From IMG/VR virus record IMGVR_UViG_2690316267_000014: a stretch of DNA of 59,077 nt; one strand, written 5' to 3'. Below, in pieces: positions 21,001 through 27,000 of this stretch. The position numbers were made by a program. The DNA comes from a virus (lineage: Duplodnaviria > Heunggongvirae > Uroviricota > Caudoviricetes). Each line of letters starts with the position of its first letter. The first letter of the stretch is position 1.

Positions 21001-24000
21001 CAGACAGGAGCTGTCGTCGGCGCGGGGATCCCCAGACGATACGATGATGTCGGGTGATTCCCGTCCCCTTTTGTGGCAATAGTCGCATCCGTCACTTTAG
21101 GAAAACGCCCGTCAGTGTAGTAAATACGCCCGTGGGGGTCCTGAGCGATCGGACTGCGGATCACATCCACCACATCCGGCCATGCAAACCAGAAATCGTC
21201 ACGGTAATGAAAAATTGTTTTTGGCTTAATTGTGAATGTTTTCTCTAACCCGGATATCTGACGTTCTGGTGTAATAACACCAAACCGGAAATGGCAGTCC
21301 TCCGCCAGTACAGCGGAATGCTCGGGCAGCATGGATGTCACAACGCGCGGCATCATCCCACGCATCGTGGTGATATCGATATAGGGCATAGAAATTCCTT
21401 TGACTGCTTCAGGCTTAAAAATCAGGGGATTTATGATGGAATTCGCTAAAATCGCGATCGGCATCACTGAAACAAAATGCCTTGCATGACATTCTGATGA
21501 TGACTAAATAACTTCATTGATTATTGCAATTTTCTTTCGGTTTGGGGGAGCATATTGCTCCCCTTTTTTCACTGCATTATCATTGCCGCTGTAGCAACGA
21601 GAAGCATCACTCCGCACACGCAAGATGTTTCACACTCACACCATACAGTCCATTTTTCGCCATTCCCGTATACAGAAAGCTATTCACTGTCTTCGTGTGA
21701 ATTCCCATTTCACTGGCAAGGCGACATCATGTACCCCTTTCAATTTTTCCAGATTCAGCTGAATAAAACGGCGTCCCTGATACATACTGCGCATTAAATG
21801 GCCCAACTGACTATCACAGATTATTAACCAGGATTCTTTACTATCCAGAATAATCCTGCGATTTTCCGGCATAAAAAACTCTTGAACCAGAATTACACGG
21901 CATCCTTCACTCCATCGTATTAACATGTTTATTACTTCACTCTCTAATACCCCCCCCTATACATGACAACAAAAACCGGAGCCCGGCTCCGGTTTTTGTG
22001 AAGCTGTCGGCTATTTCATCCCGCCAATATTTTCCCACGTCCCGTCAGCACGCAGGATTTGCAGCGGTCTTACCACGCACTGTATCTGCTTTTTATCCGC
22101 ATCCAGTATCACCACCTGCGTGATTACCCTGTCCTGCTCCGGGATAATGCCATTCTCATCTGACTCCAGGATGTCTGCCGGCCCCAGTCGCAGCTGTGCT
22201 GTAAGTAACTCCCCGTGTTCACGGTCATCATGCTTTCCGCAACCACACAGACGCTGCATAAGTTTTTTTAGTATGTTCATGTCATTCTCCTGTTCTGCCT
22301 GTATCACTGCCCACTTCATCCAGCCCCTTGACATCCTGCCACGGCCCGTCACCAAACCTGACCTGCAAATGCTGAAAAAAACCCTGAACCCGTGTGGCAT
22401 CTTTGGGGTCAAGAAAGGTCAGTCCGGTGATGAGTGCGCCATCTGTATCCGGGAACCAGCCATTGCTGTTTGTCTCAATAATGTTTCCCGGCCCCATACG
22501 GAACCGTATTTGCGTCTCCCCCGGGTCGCCCTTCGGCCCCTGAGGTCCGGTTGCCCCTACCGGGCCAGCCGCACCTGTTTCTCCTTTCGGTCCCTGTGGG
22601 CCTGCCGGGCCTGCCGCACCGGTATCTCCCTTTGGACCCTGTGGACCTGCATTTCCCGTCAGACCGGTCTCTCCCCGCTCTCCCCTGTCACCTTTCGGCC
22701 CCTGCGGGCCTGCCGGACCAGCATCACCTGCCGGTCCCCGTTCGCCGGTTGCCCCGACAGGGCCGGTGTCACCGCGCTCTCCCTTATCACCCTTCGGCCC
22801 AGCCGGACCTGCTGGCCCCGTGTCCCCTTTATCTCCTTTCGGACCGGGAACACCACCTCCTGCTGCAGCCTCTTCTGCCTTTGTTTTCGCTTCATTTGCC
22901 ACATCCATTGCCGCTTTCACCGCTTTCGGGGTGGCAGCCTTCGTTTCATCATCACTGTCCGTTGCGCTGCTTAACTGCACAATTCCCTTCTGTGCCGTCG
23001 TTGCATCAGCCACATTTGCAGCGCTGCCTGCCGGGCCTGGCTCTCCACGAGGTCCCTGAGGTCCGGTCTCTCCTCGTTCGCCTCTCGGACCTGCAGGACC
23101 AGGTTCACCTCGGGGGCCAGTCTCCCCACGCTCACCTCGTGCTCCCATCGGTCCCTGTGGTCCGGCTTCTCCTCGTTCGCCTTTAGGACCTTGCGGGCCT
23201 GCAGGACCTCCCGGATCACCTTTCTCGCCTTTTGGCCCCATATCCCCCTGGTCCCCTTTAGGCCCCCGCTCTCCGGTATCCCCCTTCAGGCCTGGTATTC
23301 CCTGCGGTCCTCGCTCCCCCTGTTCGCCCTTCTCACCACGCGGACCAGCGGGCCCTACAGCCCCCTGAGCACCAACGTCACCACGCTCACCTTTCGGCCC
23401 TGCGGGCCCTTGAGGGCCCACTGGACCTGTTTCGCCTTTAGGACCGACATCCCCCTTCGGACCAGTTTCTCCCTGAGGCCCCCGGGGCCCCCGTGCATTC
23501 TCAGCCATACGTCTGGCCTCTTCAGCACTGACAGTGGCAGCCTCTGCCCGCTTAAGGATCTCTCCGGCGCTCTCCTGCGTCAGCCTGGCCTTTTCAGCAT
23601 GCTGTCTGGCTTTTTCTGCATCAGCTCCGGCGGCTTTTTCAGACTCTCCGGCACGGGTCGAGCTTTCCTCTGCATTCCCCGCTGCTGTGACTGCACGGGT
23701 CGCAGCCTCAGTGGCATCAGTCGCTTTTTGTCCGGCTTCAGCCGCCCTGCTGGTTGCCGTCTTTGCACTGTCAGATGCGCTCTTCGCACTGGCTGCTGCA
23801 CTTTCTTTTGACTGTGTGGCCTGAGCGTTTTTTGTCGCCGTGTCTTCATTCAGGCGACGAATAGTGGCAAGGTCATCAGCCACATTATTCTGTATCTGCC
23901 GGAAATCTGTCAGCAGTTCTCCGGGTATGCTAACCTCAACAAGACTGCGGCGTAACAGCATATTGAGCGTCACCGTACTTTCGGTCCCCTCAATACGCAC

Positions 24001-27000
24001 ACGTCCGTAGACAGCAGTCTTCCCTTTCACCGTCACCGAAACCGCATACTCCCCCGGATCCATCGTCATTCCGTAATATCCACCTTCACGGGTCACTGCC
24101 GACGCACTGGTGCCGCTGAGCGCATCCGGTGAAACTGTCAGCGCCGTCAGGGTAATATTTGCTCCTGATATCGCCTCACCATCAGGAGATTTCAGCGTCC
24201 CCGAAACAACAACACTCACACTCCACCTCCGTTAAACACTTTTTTACGGGCAGACAATGCACTGTCTGCCCCCTGTTTGATCCCAAGTTGCTCAACAAAA
24301 CTCTGATAATGCTGCGCAGCCAGCCCCGATTCTGCGCCACCGGCAGCATCCTTACTGAAAGCGCGAAACAACATCCACTCCACCAGTGGGTTAACATAAG
24401 CCTCTTCCAGTGGAACTGGCGTATCATCGTCCTGCGTCAGAACATACTCTGCCTCCGGTATCCGGCTTACCACTGCATCAATACTTATCTCTTTGTCAGG
24501 AGCAGGAAACAGCCAGAATACGCGCGGGGACAGGTCGTTGCTGATAAAACATTCAGGAATACCCTTCATTGTGGGCCACTCAGGATACTGCGCATCCAGC
24601 ACCTCCCGGGATAATGGTCTGACTGCACTACCGTCACTGAGGCATATCACGTCAAGAAGTTGTATTACACCATCGGGCAAAACCTGACGGGCGCCAGGAA
24701 CACAACTGATTGTTTCCAGGCTTGCGCCAGCATCCGGTCTCGCCAGAATCACTGCCCTCACAGCATCATTGTAATAATCGCACAATTCCTGCAGGGGCCA
24801 GCGAACCATCATCGGGTCAACCAGTTGTGTATTCACACGTCCGATGATTTCTGTAATCGTCGTCATCAGAAAAACCTCTGCCTGCGTACAGGATTGCGGT
24901 ATGAGGAGTACGGACTTGTCGCCAGTGTATCGCGATATGCCCGACGGATACCCTCAGAAAACTGCACAGAGAAATACTGTGCACGCGACGGGTCTGACCA
25001 TGAAACCCCGGTCTGCATAAACAACCGTTCAAGCGCCCCTGCTGCCACCTCTTCAGGCCATGCCCGCAGTTCATCCGGCACCTGACGGCTCCCTGCTTTC
25101 GGAGCAATGGCATAAAGCACACTCACTTCTCCGGGCGAACAGGCAAAATGCATTACCCGCCCCGGGCGGATTTCCACATCATGACCGGCAAAAAGCTCAC
25201 GCCCGTCAGCGAGGAGACGAATAATATGTACGCACTCTTCATTCTCCGCGTCATATGGCAGCACACAGTCCTCTCCGGCTGACGGTGACAACGTAGCCTC
25301 ACGGCGGCACAACAGGGACTGACGGCAGAATGCCACTGCCGACATGGATAACGCATCCGTCATCATAATGCTCAGTGGACCGCTGATATGACGACGGACA
25401 TAAGGCAAAAAATCAGTCAGTTCCGCCATGTTGTTCAGTCTCCGCAACACGACGGCGAAATGCCTCACGCACACGGATACGGAATGCATCAGCCGTTTCT
25501 TTCGGGTCTTTGTGAATATTCAGCTCTTCTGCCTCACACAACGTTGCCAGCCGTGCTGAGGTGAGCTTACTTAAATCCACATTCTCTCCATTGACGGGAA
25601 CAACAAAACTGCTCTCCGCTTCTTCCCGCGCGGCAAGCGCTCTTTCCTGTTCCTGCTGTGCCTGCCGCAACTGCTCATCCTGTTGTTGCTTTTTGAGCAC
25701 ACCATCAAGCTCTTCATGACGAATCCAGACTTCAGGAAAGGCCAGCAACTGCCAGGCGAGCGCACTGTCAACATGCACCGGTTCAAGGCGCGGGAACAGT
25801 GTACGACTCCCGGTAAGGGTATCCTTTTTCACGGGTTTGGGGCCGATATAGACAACGGCAATTTTTTCGCTCATATAATTCCCCGGATAAAAAAGCCCGC
25901 ATGACGCGGGCCGGAAGGTTTATATCAGTAACCCACCACGGTATAACGCAGCAGAACATTCAGGGTGCCGGTTGCAGCTGCTGTCTTAATGGTGACCGTA
26001 ACCAGCTCTCCGTCACGCTGTGTGGTGTACGGCTCCACTGGCACATACTTGGTAAAGCTGGCAGTTACTGCACCACTGTCACCAATGAGTTCATGTTCGC
26101 CAGATTTAACGCTGACAGTTGCTGTGCCGCCAAGTCCCTTGGTAGAAACCAGCTGTAACGCATTAATACGAACACCGATCGGCAACGAAAGAAGATGAAT
26201 AACACTGTCCGCTTCCGCAGCATTCACAGTAAACGCACCTTCTGCCACCGACTCATTACCGTGCGTACCCGTATAGACCCGTTCACTCAGTGACGGGGCA
26301 AGGATGGTCTTTGCCATAATTAATGACTCCTGAAAAAGCCGGGCGATAACCCGGCATGAGGAAAGGAAAAATCAGAGCTTCACTGCGGTATCAACAGCAA
26401 TCACACCGTGATCCTGCATCCTGCCGCTCTTCTCCGGGAAACGGATTTTTTTCAGACCGTTGATCCAGCTGATTGCTATCTCAGTACGGTTATCCATATC
26501 CGTTTTCTTCTCAACCATGTTGAAGTGACCGCCGCCCTTCTGACCGTACGCATTCGCCAGTGCCTGAGCACCCAGCAGCATGGCGCGGTCAATGTTGGTT
26601 GCGGCCTGCTTCTCTTCTGTGGTTGCCGTCAGGTCGTTTTTCGATACCAGAACCTTTGACCCCTGATAGAAACGGATCGGCATCCCCGCATACTTGCGGA
26701 CCAGGATATTGCGCCACATCGCACATTCGCCTTTGAACAACGGATGATTAAACCCTTTTGAACGGTTCACGGCACGCGTCATCATCTGGTTCCAGTCCTT
26801 GCCGGAAGTTGAGGTGTACCAGTCATTCCACTGACGCGGCGTAACGTACAGGACGTAATACGGATCTTCGCCATGCAGTTCATCTCCGGACAGACGCACC
26901 GGCTGTAACGGATGGGCCATCTCGTCAATAAACAGCGAGAGATTATCGACCAGCCCAAGGGTGAACAGGTCTGACTGATCAATACCGTCAAAACTCGTCG

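What the first reader, a model, noticed from the sequence alone, without database searches (positions are those of the whole stretch)
22011..24219. Collagen-like tail fibre followed by a small gene that copies its C-terminal domain
The 645-aa fibre has long Gly-X-Y triplet runs. The next gene (22011-22280, 89 aa) encodes a protein resembling the fibre's own C-terminal globular region. That could be a chaperone or an alternative receptor-binding tip, and a substrate for domain swapping.
Basis: seen in the sequence. Interest (0 to 1): 0.4.

Follow-up and report, generated by a model that had tools for sequence, protein, structure and literature searches.

The report
Stx-phage collagen fibre and tip-paralogue gene
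The collagen-like side fibre of a Shiga-toxin-type E. coli phage is followed by a small gene that really does copy the fibre's end knob; this pair is already published, the small gene is dispensable in the laboratory, and its function is still unknown although it is strongly conserved.

Summary
The 645-aa fibre (22282-24219, minus strand) has 90 Gly-X-Y triplets. Its last globular domain is 34% identical to residues 28-89 of the next gene (22011-22280, 89 aa; E = 7e-11). Both match Pfam PF06820 (Phage_fiber_C, "PfC").

The pair is already known. The window is a short-tailed Stx-family (Traversvirus) prophage. The fibre is EPclB, also called Sp5 ORF67, 933W L0121 and phi24B gp61. The small gene is Sp5 ORF68 (ECs1229). 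Mondal et al. 2016 described it as an 89-aa PfC domain, deleted it without loss of infectivity, and proposed it as a sequence "reservoir". Ghosh et al. 2012 showed that PfC is a self-trimerising knob.

New here:
- ORF68 is under strong purifying selection (dN/dS 0.10; 0.045 in its PfC part).
- Its ribosome-binding junction is nearly invariant.
- It always travels with the PfC tip in an ~865-bp cassette shared by short- and long-tailed phages.
- A diverged pair exists on a non-collagen fibre.
- A sister phage carries a gp38-like tip adhesin in the same slot.

Best reading: a non-essential partner protein of the fibre tip. It is not an obligate chaperone and not a silent cassette. Low to moderate interest.

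The parts
22282..24219 (-). Lateral tail-fibre gene, 645 aa, EPclB architecture. Equivalent to Sp5 ORF67/ECs1228, 933W L0121 and phi24B gp61 ('tsps').
   Evidence: ORF. 99-99.8% nucleotide identity to Stx phages. Annotation in phi24B. Pfam hits to phage_tail_N/CarboxypepD_reg, Collagen, Phage_fiber_2 and Phage_fiber_C. Literature.
23020..23490 (-). First collagen region, residues 244-400: 32 + 20 Gly-X-Y triplets with one single-residue interruption at residue 340.
   Evidence: Triplet count. Pfam Collagen. Degenerate 9-nt-phased direct repeats.
22876..23001 (-). Phage_fiber_2 repeat, residues 407-448, lying between the two collagen runs.
   Evidence: Pfam PF03406, E = 5e-18. Matches phage Mu fibre protein S in the PDB.
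22513..22854 (-). Second (distal) collagen region, residues 456-569, 38 triplets. The 5' edge of the cassette shared with long-tailed phages lies inside it, at about 22830.
22318..22509 (-). PfC domain of the fibre, residues 571-634: the trimerising distal knob.
   Evidence: PF06820, E = 2.6e-34. Trimerisation and nucleation of the collagen helix were shown for the EPclA homologue (PMC3368898).
22282..22317 (-). Fibre C-terminal tail (DEVGSDTGRTGE plus stop). It contains the GGAG Shine-Dalgarno sequence (22287-22290) for the next gene, followed by TGA-c-ATG.
   Evidence: Sequence. The 40 nt upstream of the ORF68 ATG are identical in 77 of 83 related loci. Synonymous diversity is 0.005 here against 0.11 in the PfC core.
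22011..22280 (-). ORF68-type gene, 89 aa: a stand-alone PfC paralogue. Residues 1-27 are a Cys/His-rich N-terminal extension and residues 28-89 are the PfC domain. Equivalent to Sp5 ORF68/ECs1229, 933W L0122 and phrog_576.
   Evidence: dN/dS is 0.10 overall, 0.045 in the PfC part, and specific to this frame.
21969..21999 (-). Perfect 15-bp-stem hairpin with A-run and T-run flanks, terminator-like. It marks the 3' edge of the shared cassette.
   Evidence: Inverted repeat I1. Fold energy -24.8 kcal/mol. Cassette edge at 21961-21969.
21961..22830 (-). Mobile 'fibre-tip cassette': distal collagen run + PfC + ORF68 + hairpin. Shared at 94-98% nucleotide identity with long-tailed lambdoid prophages.
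   Evidence: blastn against L020, L030, L085 and L086. The 571-bp core is found in 698 of 5,426 complete E. coli genomes, at a median of 11 copies per genome that has any.

Best explanation
The small gene encodes a dedicated, non-essential partner of the fibre's PfC tip.

Shown:
- It is a real protein-coding paralogue of the fibre's trimerising end knob.
- It is translated from a conserved GGAG site placed so that its ATG follows the fibre's stop codon by one base.
- It is kept intact by strong purifying selection.
- It is inherited as one cassette with the fibre tip.

Inferred:
- Like the isolated PfC domain, it forms its own small trimer.
- It binds the distal knob of the lateral fibre, or the knob's invariant 11-residue tail. 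It either stays there as a loosely held cap or adaptor (my preferred version, about 0.3) or acts transiently while the tip assembles (about 0.2).
- Because the fibre's own knob varies while the small protein hardly does, the small protein probably contacts something conserved, and the knob faces the variable host surface.
- It is dispensable on laboratory K-12, where infection appears to depend on the central needle complex and BamA rather than on the lateral fibre tips.
For: Homology and family membership.

Purifying selection across 64 distinct alleles:
- dN/dS is 0.10 overall and 0.045 in the PfC part.
- The fibre's own PfC gives 0.21.
- The low ratio appears only in the ORF68 frame.

The 40 nt before the ATG, including GGAG and TGA-c-ATG, are identical in 77 of 83 loci.

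Pairing is strict:
- Almost every related IMG/VR locus that retains upstream sequence has a fibre PfC followed 4 nt later by ORF68. The fibres are mostly 437 aa (long-tailed phages), with a few of 645 aa.
- In the phage collection, 296 records match each of the two domains.

The shared cassette runs from inside the distal collagen run to the hairpin just after ORF68.

A diverged pair exists in L084. A non-collagen 212-aa protein ending in PfC is followed by an overlapping 79-aa stand-alone homologue. The stand-alone proteins are 61-84% identical to one another, while the fibre-end domains are only 37% identical. The partner of the stand-alone protein therefore looks like the PfC tip and not the collagen shaft.

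In sister Traversvirus Stx2-86 the fibre ends in a different domain (Peptidase_S74). The slot after it holds a gp38-like tail-fibre adhesin, and ORF68 is absent.

Isolated 64-aa PfC is a trimer (PMC3368898).

Two ORF68-specific peptides were recorded in a purified phi24B virion preparation, so the protein is made.
Against: No direct evidence of binding exists.

The two AlphaFold2 monomer models are poor (pLDDT 47 and 62), and I could not model a complex.

In the phi24B proteome, ORF68 peptides total only 6 visible spectra against 2,267 for the fibre. That is about the level of presumed contaminants such as Lom and Q, so a stoichiometric cap is unlikely.

Deleting the gene in Sp5 gave no reported defect.

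Very high conservation is unusual for a receptor-binding tip.

IS insertions split the gene in a few phage records such as PA28 and 06-3462.
Confidence: 0.45

Rival explanations
1. Silent genetic reservoir. ORF68 matters as DNA: a spare tip cassette that recombination can swap onto the fibre to vary its end (the proposal of Mondal et al. 2016).
For: Proposed in PMC5155283.

Rare natural rearrangements exist:
- P0063/L083 joins collagen repeats in frame to the ORF68 PfC at a GPA microhomology.
- L085 carries a tandem duplication that makes an ORF68/fibre-PfC chimera.

The cassette is present at a median of 11 copies per carrier genome.
Against: - Strong frame-specific purifying selection and an invariant ribosome-binding junction point to a translated, functional protein.
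- Peptides were detected.
- The two copies share no DNA-level similarity, there are no flanking inverted repeats, and I saw no invertase or reverse transcriptase gene next to the pair.
- A deletion-type swap is irreversible, and only singleton examples were seen.
- No full-length fibre carrying an ORF68-type tip turned up among 176 homologues.
Confidence: 0.1
2. Assembly helper only. ORF68 is a Tfa-like chaperone that helps the PfC knob or collagen helix fold and is not part of the virion. This overlaps the transient-binding version of the best explanation (about 0.2 of its 0.45), so the two confidences are not additive.
For: - It sits where tfa sits after stf in lambda-type phages (established knowledge).
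- It is translationally coupled to the fibre.
- It is present only at trace level in virions.
- It is a conserved partner of a variable tip.
Against: - The Sp5 deletion mutant is not defective, whereas the fibre deletion is.
- Recombinant EPclA and PfC trimerise and refold without it.
- There is no match to Caudo_TAP or any chaperone family.

Caveat: the distal tip may simply be unnecessary on K-12, so a tip-specific helper is not fully excluded.
Confidence: 0.2
3. A function unrelated to the fibre, for example a role in the host cell or the lysogen, with linkage to the tip being historical.
For: - No phenotype in phage infectivity assays.
- In long-tailed prophages it lies just upstream of type III effector genes.
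- It has a conserved Cys/His-rich N-terminal extension with an L-x-G-C motif.
Against: - No promoter-like site precedes it, and it is coupled to a late gene.
- Pairing with PfC-tipped fibres is strict, and the gene is absent when the tip is of another type.
- The N-terminus lacks the hydrophobic core of a signal peptide.
Confidence: 0.12
4. The two genes are fused by programmed frameshifting to give a fibre with two tandem knobs, or ORF68 is merely a decaying remnant of an older fibre end.
For: - ORF68 is in the +1 frame, one base after the stop codon.
- The phi24B proteomics authors included hypothetical fusion sequences in their search database.
- Partial PfC fragments do lie further downstream in some long-tailed phages.
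Against: - No slippery or prfB-like site is visible, from my reading, and Mondal et al. found none.
- No junction peptide is reported.
- ORF68 has its own GGAG and ATG, both invariant.
- A remnant would not show dN/dS of 0.05-0.10 across 64 alleles, nor the large 89-aa clusters of hundreds to more than a thousand members.
Confidence: 0.04

Closest known systems
Sp5 ORF67/ORF68 (ECs1228/ECs1229) of E. coli O157:H7 Sakai, equivalent to 933W L0121/L0122 and to phi24B gp61 plus its 'hypothetical tail fiber protein'
   Same: The same two genes in the same order. The region is 99% identical at nucleotide level and ORF68 is 93% identical at protein level. The 89-aa PfC-only product, its non-essentiality and the 'reservoir' idea are published (PMC5155283).
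   Different: Nothing substantive differs. The window's prophage appears to lack stx.
EPclA/EPclB prophage collagen-like proteins (Ghosh et al. 2012)
   Same: The fibre has the EPclB architecture PfN-PCoil-Col-Pf2-Col-PfC at 645 aa. PfC was shown to be a trimerisation module that nucleates the collagen helix.
   Different: As far as my searches of that paper showed, it did not treat the stand-alone PfC gene.
Fibre plus downstream tip protein modules: lambda stf-tfa and T2-type gp37-gp38 (established knowledge); Stx2-86 orf21-orf22
   Same: A small gene immediately after the fibre gene. It is exchanged together with the fibre tip, and its product acts on or at the tip.
   Different: ORF68 matches neither Caudo_TAP nor Gp38_N. 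Uniquely, it is a paralogue of the tip domain itself. It is also not required for infectivity.
Invertible or templated tip-variation systems: Mu/P1 S-S' inversion and diversity-generating retroelements (established knowledge)
   Same: A second copy of the fibre's C-terminal coding sequence lies next to the fibre gene.
   Different: There are no inverted repeats and no DNA-level similarity between the copies, and I saw no recombinase or reverse transcriptase gene next to the pair. The second copy is itself translated and constrained.

Membership tests
Pfam PF06820 Phage_fiber_C (PfC) | Match to the family HMM above the gathering score (25 bits) over the whole 64-position model | tested here: met
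   Fibre: 117.8 bits, residues 571-634. ORF68: 123.2 bits, residues 28-89.
Pfam PF06820 Phage_fiber_C (PfC) | The domain forms a trimer | not testable with these tools
   Shown experimentally only for the EPclA PfC domain (PMC3368898). The monomer AF2 models of ORF68 are of low confidence.
Pfam PF06820 Phage_fiber_C (PfC) | The domain sits at the C-terminus of a tail-fibre protein | tested here: met
   Met for the fibre. ORF68 is a stand-alone variant with a 27-residue N-terminal extension and no shaft.
EPclB collagen-like prophage fibre (Ghosh 2012) | Architecture PfN - coiled coil - Col - Pf2 - Col - PfC, about 645 aa | tested here: met
   Pfam domains in that order. Collagen runs at 244-400 and 456-569. 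ECs1228 and Z1483 are listed as EPclB, 645 aa.
Tail-fibre assembly chaperone (Tfa, Caudo_TAP PF02413) | Sequence match to the family | tested here: not met
   ORF68 has no Pfam hit other than PF06820 at E <= 0.1.
Tail-fibre assembly chaperone (Tfa, Caudo_TAP PF02413) | Required for a functional fibre | not testable with these tools
   Published data argue against it. The Sp5 ORF68 deletion is not among the defective mutants, whereas the ORF67 deletion is. rEPclA trimerises alone.
gp38-like tip adhesin (Gp38_N PF21721) | N-terminal Gp38_N domain | tested here: not met
   ORF68 has no hit. The Stx2-86 orf22 protein in the equivalent slot does hit (E = 1e-19; phrog_1121 'tail fiber adhesin').
Invertible or templated tip cassette (shufflon, Gin/Cin, DGR) | Inverted or near-identical DNA repeats between the expressed and spare copies, plus a recombinase or reverse transcriptase nearby | tested here: not met
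   The only inverted repeat in 21900-24300 is the terminator hairpin, and no direct repeat links the two PfC copies. The neighbouring genes are tail genes.
Programmed-frameshift fusion | Slippery site, or a stop-codon shift site with a stimulator, in the overlap | tested here: inconclusive
   ORF68 is +1 relative to the fibre, and no recognisable shift site appears in ...ACAGGAGAATGACATG.... None was found by Mondal et al.. No junction peptide data are available.
Bacterial lipoprotein (lipobox) | Hydrophobic signal-peptide core before L-x-[GAS]-C | tested here: not met
   An L-C-G-C motif is present and conserved as L-F-G-C in P0129. However, the best 7-residue Kyte-Doolittle mean is only 0.5, too low for a membrane-spanning core.

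The most novel reading that the evidence does not exclude
ORF68 defines a new type of tail-fibre accessory. It would be a paralogue of the fibre's own trimerisation knob that docks onto that knob as a conserved cap or adaptor. It would give the otherwise unexplained lateral fibres of Stx and other EHEC prophages their function in the gut, such as binding a conserved host or mucosal ligand, or parking the fibres against the capsid. In that way it would influence the spread of Shiga-toxin phages.
Probability: 0.2. Interest if true: 0.55.

Novelty: already known. Interest (0 to 1): 0.28.

Why it matters
The lateral collagen-like fibres are conserved across Stx-converting and many other EHEC prophages. 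The tip cassette studied here occurs in 13% of complete E. coli genomes, at a median of 11 copies. Yet a 2026 cryo-EM study still lists the function of these fibres as an open question.

The small tip paralogue is the most conserved element of that cassette, and it has been dismissed as a spare part. Showing that it is a selected, translated partner of the tip gives a concrete handle on what these fibres do and on how tips are exchanged between prophages.

As a discovery, however, the gene pair and the resemblance are already in the literature.

Tried and rejected
- **Structure prediction.** I ran AlphaFold2 on full-length ORF68 with an 8-row alignment (pLDDT 47) and on its PfC core with a 10-row alignment that included distant repeats (pLDDT 62, pTM 0.28). 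Both are too weak for a fold search, so none was run. The phi24B authors also report no confident AlphaFold model for this domain.
- **PDB sequence search.** ORF68 found nothing. The fibre found only collagens and the Pf2 repeat of the Mu fibre.
- **Apparent fusion in L014.** The fibre PfC and ORF68 seemed to lie in one ORF. This turned out to be a locus riddled with single-base indels with a stop inside ORF68, so I rejected it.
- **Promoter and terminator scan.** No promoter-like site lies before ORF68. The scan missed the obvious hairpin because its A/T flanks pair.
- **Lipoprotein idea.** Suggested by the conserved L-x-G-C motif, rejected on hydrophobicity.
- **Search for distant relatives.** Only 87 cluster representatives were found in 1.84 billion proteins. 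Only 4 loci were found in 185,579 species genomes: one E. albertii, one probable contaminant and two very weak matches. No deeper alignment could therefore be built.
- **NCBIfam.** It has no model for ORF68.
- **PADLOC.** Not searched.

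
Full report
**What is there**

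On the minus strand, a 645-aa ORF (22282-24219, GTG start) is followed one base after its TGA by an 89-aa ORF (22011-22280, ATG). A GGAG lies six bases upstream of that ATG, and a perfect 15-bp-stem hairpin follows at 21969-21999.

The large protein has 90 Gly-X-Y triplets in runs of 32, 20 and 38. Its Pfam domains, in order, are: an N-terminal fibre domain, Collagen, Phage_fiber_2, Collagen and Phage_fiber_C.

BLASTP aligns fibre residues 572-633 with ORF68 residues 29-88 at 34% identity and E = 7e-11. Both proteins match the full 64-position PF06820 model, at E = 2.6e-34 and 5.3e-36.

**Identity of the locus**

The 3.4 kb around the pair is 99-99.8% identical to many short-tailed Stx-converting phages of the genus Traversvirus, including phi24B. 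The ORF68 protein is 93% identical to its 933W homologue L0122.

In phi24B the fibre is annotated 'tsps'. The small ORF is annotated 'hypothetical tail fiber protein; phage fiber C superfamily'.

The neighbouring genes fit a tail module. Upstream lies the SU10-type tail adaptor (24216-24866). Downstream lie the 567-aa nozzle and the 422-aa needle with a Phage_Tail_Tip domain. These names follow the phi24B cryo-EM preprint.

**What is already published**

- Ghosh et al. 2012 (PMC3368898) classified this fibre as EPclB (ECs1228/Z1483; 645 aa; collagen runs of 157 and 114 residues). They documented length variation of the collagen runs among isolates. For the EPclA homologue they showed that the isolated 64-residue PfC domain is a trimer and nucleates refolding of the collagen helix.
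- Mondal et al. 2016 (PMC5155283) deleted Sp5 late genes one by one. ORF67 (the fibre) is essential and was located at the tail by immuno-EM. ORF68 (ECs1229, 89 aa) had its own deletion construct and is not among the nine essential or the two impaired mutants. [quoted passage not shown] - A 2026 preprint on phi24B (doi 10.64898/2026.04.10.717836) shows six lateral gp61 fibres whose N-terminal domains bind the adaptor ring. Their collagen shafts and C-terminal knobs are unresolved. The authors argue that these fibres are probably not the BamA binder, and they list the function of the fibres as an open question.

The finding is therefore already known as an observation. The function of the small gene is not known.

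**New evidence 1: it is a selected protein-coding gene**

I compared 84 full-length copies from 80 IMG/VR loci plus reference loci, which gave 64 distinct nucleotide alleles. Nei-Gojobori pairwise sums give the following:

| Region | pS | pN | dN/dS |
|---|---|---|---|
| ORF68, whole | 0.120 | 0.0135 | 0.10 |
| ORF68, PfC part (codons 28-89) | 0.123 | 0.006 | 0.045 |
| ORF68, N-terminal extension (codons 1-27) | 0.110 | 0.030 | 0.26 |
| Fibre's own PfC core | 0.112 | 0.025 | 0.21 |

The low ratio is specific to the ORF68 frame. Four of the other five frames give 1.1-3.4. The wobble-aligned antisense frame gives 0.30.

The 40 nt before the ATG, which include GGAG and TGA-c-ATG, are identical in 77 of 83 loci. 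Variation begins immediately after the ATG. Synonymous diversity in the fibre's last 11 codons is 0.005.

The main 89-aa protein clusters hold hundreds to more than a thousand member sequences each. Truncated or fused forms are mostly singletons.

Caveat: the pairwise sums are not phylogenetically independent, and recombination is rife among these copies.

**New evidence 2: it travels with the tip, whatever the shaft**

Almost every IMG/VR locus that retains upstream sequence shows a fibre PfC followed 4 nt later by ORF68. The fibres are mostly 437 aa, the EPclA type of long-tailed lambdoid prophages with 20-38 triplets. A few are 645 aa.

In the phage collection, 296 records match ORF68 and 296 match the fibre knob, with nearly the same organism breakdown.

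Nucleotide similarity between this short-tailed phage and long-tailed phages (2B8 and several IMG/VR loci) starts inside the distal collagen run at about 22830. In three of the four loci compared it ends at 21961-21969, the foot of the hairpin after ORF68. In 2B8 it runs on to about 21899. This shared cassette is about 865 bp at 94-98% identity.

The 571-bp core of the cassette is present in 698 of 5,426 complete E. coli genomes, at a median of 11 copies per carrier genome.

A diverged example (L084) has a 212-aa non-collagen protein ending in a PfC domain, followed by an overlapping 79-aa stand-alone homologue, P0129. Stand-alone proteins are 61-84% identical to one another. The two fibre-end domains are only 37% identical to each other and 27-34% identical to the stand-alone proteins. 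The stand-alone form is thus the slowly evolving member of the pair. Its constant companion is the PfC tip, not collagen.

**New evidence 3: what occupies the slot when the tip is different**

Stx2-86 is a sister Traversvirus whose fibre shares the N-terminus at 80% identity. Its fibre ends in a Peptidase_S74 intramolecular-chaperone domain instead of PfC. It is followed by a 181-aa protein with a Gp38_N domain (phrog_1121, 'tail fiber adhesin'), and then by a cor-like gene. There is no ORF68.

The position after the fibre gene is therefore a slot for a cognate tip-binding protein that is exchanged together with the tip.

**New evidence 4: expression**

The phi24B virion proteome supplement lists two peptides unique to the ORF68 homologue, VITQVVILDADKK and the C-terminal ADGTWENIGGMK. 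Each has 3 spectra at probability >= 0.9996. They are filed under hypothetical 'Fusion_6159' entries labelled 'Spike or just gp59?'.

The fibre has 2,267 PSMs in the same data set. Per residue, ORF68 is at roughly 2% of the fibre, which is similar to Lom or Q. The protein is made, but a stoichiometric virion component is not supported. The stored file is truncated, so lower-count peptides are not visible.

**Rearrangements**

- P0063/L083, at a contig edge and seen in 2 samples, reads ...GATGERGP|ADILESDENG.... This is an in-frame join of the fibre's collagen run to the ORF68 PfC at a short GPA/CCGGCAG microhomology.
- L085 has a tandem duplication that gives a 92-aa chimera (ORF68 residues 1-40 plus the rear of the fibre PfC) between an intact fibre and an intact ORF68.
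- IS629/IS1203 splits ORF68 in PA28 and 06-3462. The split match to Stx2_122200 suggests a similar insertion there.
- Short PfC fragments lie about 1 kb downstream in several long-tailed loci and in 2B8.

Swapping and decay therefore do happen, but as rare events.

**Interpretation**

The relic, frameshift-fusion and pure-reservoir readings fit the selection data poorly. There is also no DNA homology, inverted repeat or recombinase that could drive regular switching.

An obligate chaperone is contradicted by the Sp5 deletion and by the autonomous trimerisation of recombinant PfC.

What remains best supported is a dedicated, dispensable partner of the PfC tip, made in step with the fibre. I favour a loosely held cap or adaptor (about 0.3) over a transient assembly helper (about 0.2). 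Neither version is demonstrated.

Dispensability on K-12 is unsurprising if, as the cryo-EM preprint argues, the lateral fibre tips are not what triggers infection there.

**Limits**

- The structure predictions were uninformative (pLDDT 47 and 62), and no complex could be modelled.
- The family is tiny and confined to Escherichia, Shigella and Citrobacter prophages, so co-variation analysis is not feasible.

**Verdict**

The added value here is evidence that the small gene is a constrained, co-mobile partner of the tip rather than a spare part. Interest is low to moderate.

Noticed in passing
window 36903-40112: The Q antiterminator gene (39579-40112) and the NanS-p-type esterase gene (36903-38813) are only 766 bp apart. 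No Stx A/B-sized ORF and no tRNA gene was found anywhere in the window. This looks like a stx-negative member of the short-tailed Stx-phage family.
   Followed up: partly
L002 3512-5094 (phage 06-3462; also PA28 and probably Stx2_122200): An IS3-family element (IS1203/IS629) is inserted inside the ORF68 homologue and splits it into two annotated fragments. These are natural knock-outs of the small gene in otherwise complete phage genomes.
   Followed up: partly
L085 1382-3246: A tandem duplication spans the fibre-PfC/ORF68 junction. The order is intact 437-aa fibre, then a 92-aa chimera (ORF68 residues 1-40 fused to the rear of the fibre PfC), then intact ORF68. Each gene is separated from the next by one base.
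   Followed up: yes
L083 1-291 (protein P0063): An in-frame join of fibre collagen repeats directly to the ORF68-type PfC domain at a short microhomology. It is a natural 'tip swap' by deletion. It lies at a contig edge, so the full gene is not seen.
   Followed up: partly
window 22200-22280 (ORF68 residues 1-27): The N-terminal extension MNILKKLMQRLCGCGKHDDREHG is rich in Cys and His. The pattern M-x-I-x-K-K...L-x-G-C-x-K is kept in the 64%-identical homologue P0129. It resembles a lipobox but lacks a hydrophobic core, so a metal site or a docking helix is possible.
   Followed up: partly
L087 674-3556 (Stx2-converting phage 86): An alternative tip module sits on the same fibre N-terminus. 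The collagen fibre ends in a Peptidase_S74 intramolecular-chaperone domain and is followed by a gp38-like adhesin and a cor-like exclusion gene.
   Followed up: yes
protein P0140 (565 aa, source organism unknown): A distant relative carries four tandem PfC-like repeats (25-32% identical to ORF68), followed by Gly-X-Y repeats. The PfC-like module can therefore also occur as serial beads within one fibre chain.
   Followed up: partly
L086 5475-5611 (phage 2B8) and about 1 kb downstream of ORF68 in L019, L038, L043, L044, L047 and others: Partial, degraded copies of the 3' part of ORF68 (78-88% identity) lie downstream of the intact gene in long-tailed prophages.
   Followed up: no
window 22120-22974 (+ strand): A 284-aa antisense ORF overlaps ORF68 and the collagen-coding region. 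It is annotated as a CDS in phi24B (vb_24B_37c). It is probably a by-product of the G+C-rich triplet repeat. The sense frame carries the lower dN/dS, 0.10 against 0.30.
   Followed up: partly
L089 (Xanthomonas pisi DSM 18956, 725-bp contig): A 93%-identical ORF68 copy sits on a tiny contig of a Xanthomonas assembly. It is almost certainly E. coli prophage contamination.
   Followed up: no
window 24216-24219: The fibre's GTG start overlaps the stop of the upstream SU10-type adaptor gene (GTGA). This is the protein that the fibre's N-terminal domain binds in the phi24B structure. The adaptor, fibre and ORF68 genes thus form a chain of closely abutting genes, which suggests coupled translation.
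   Followed up: no
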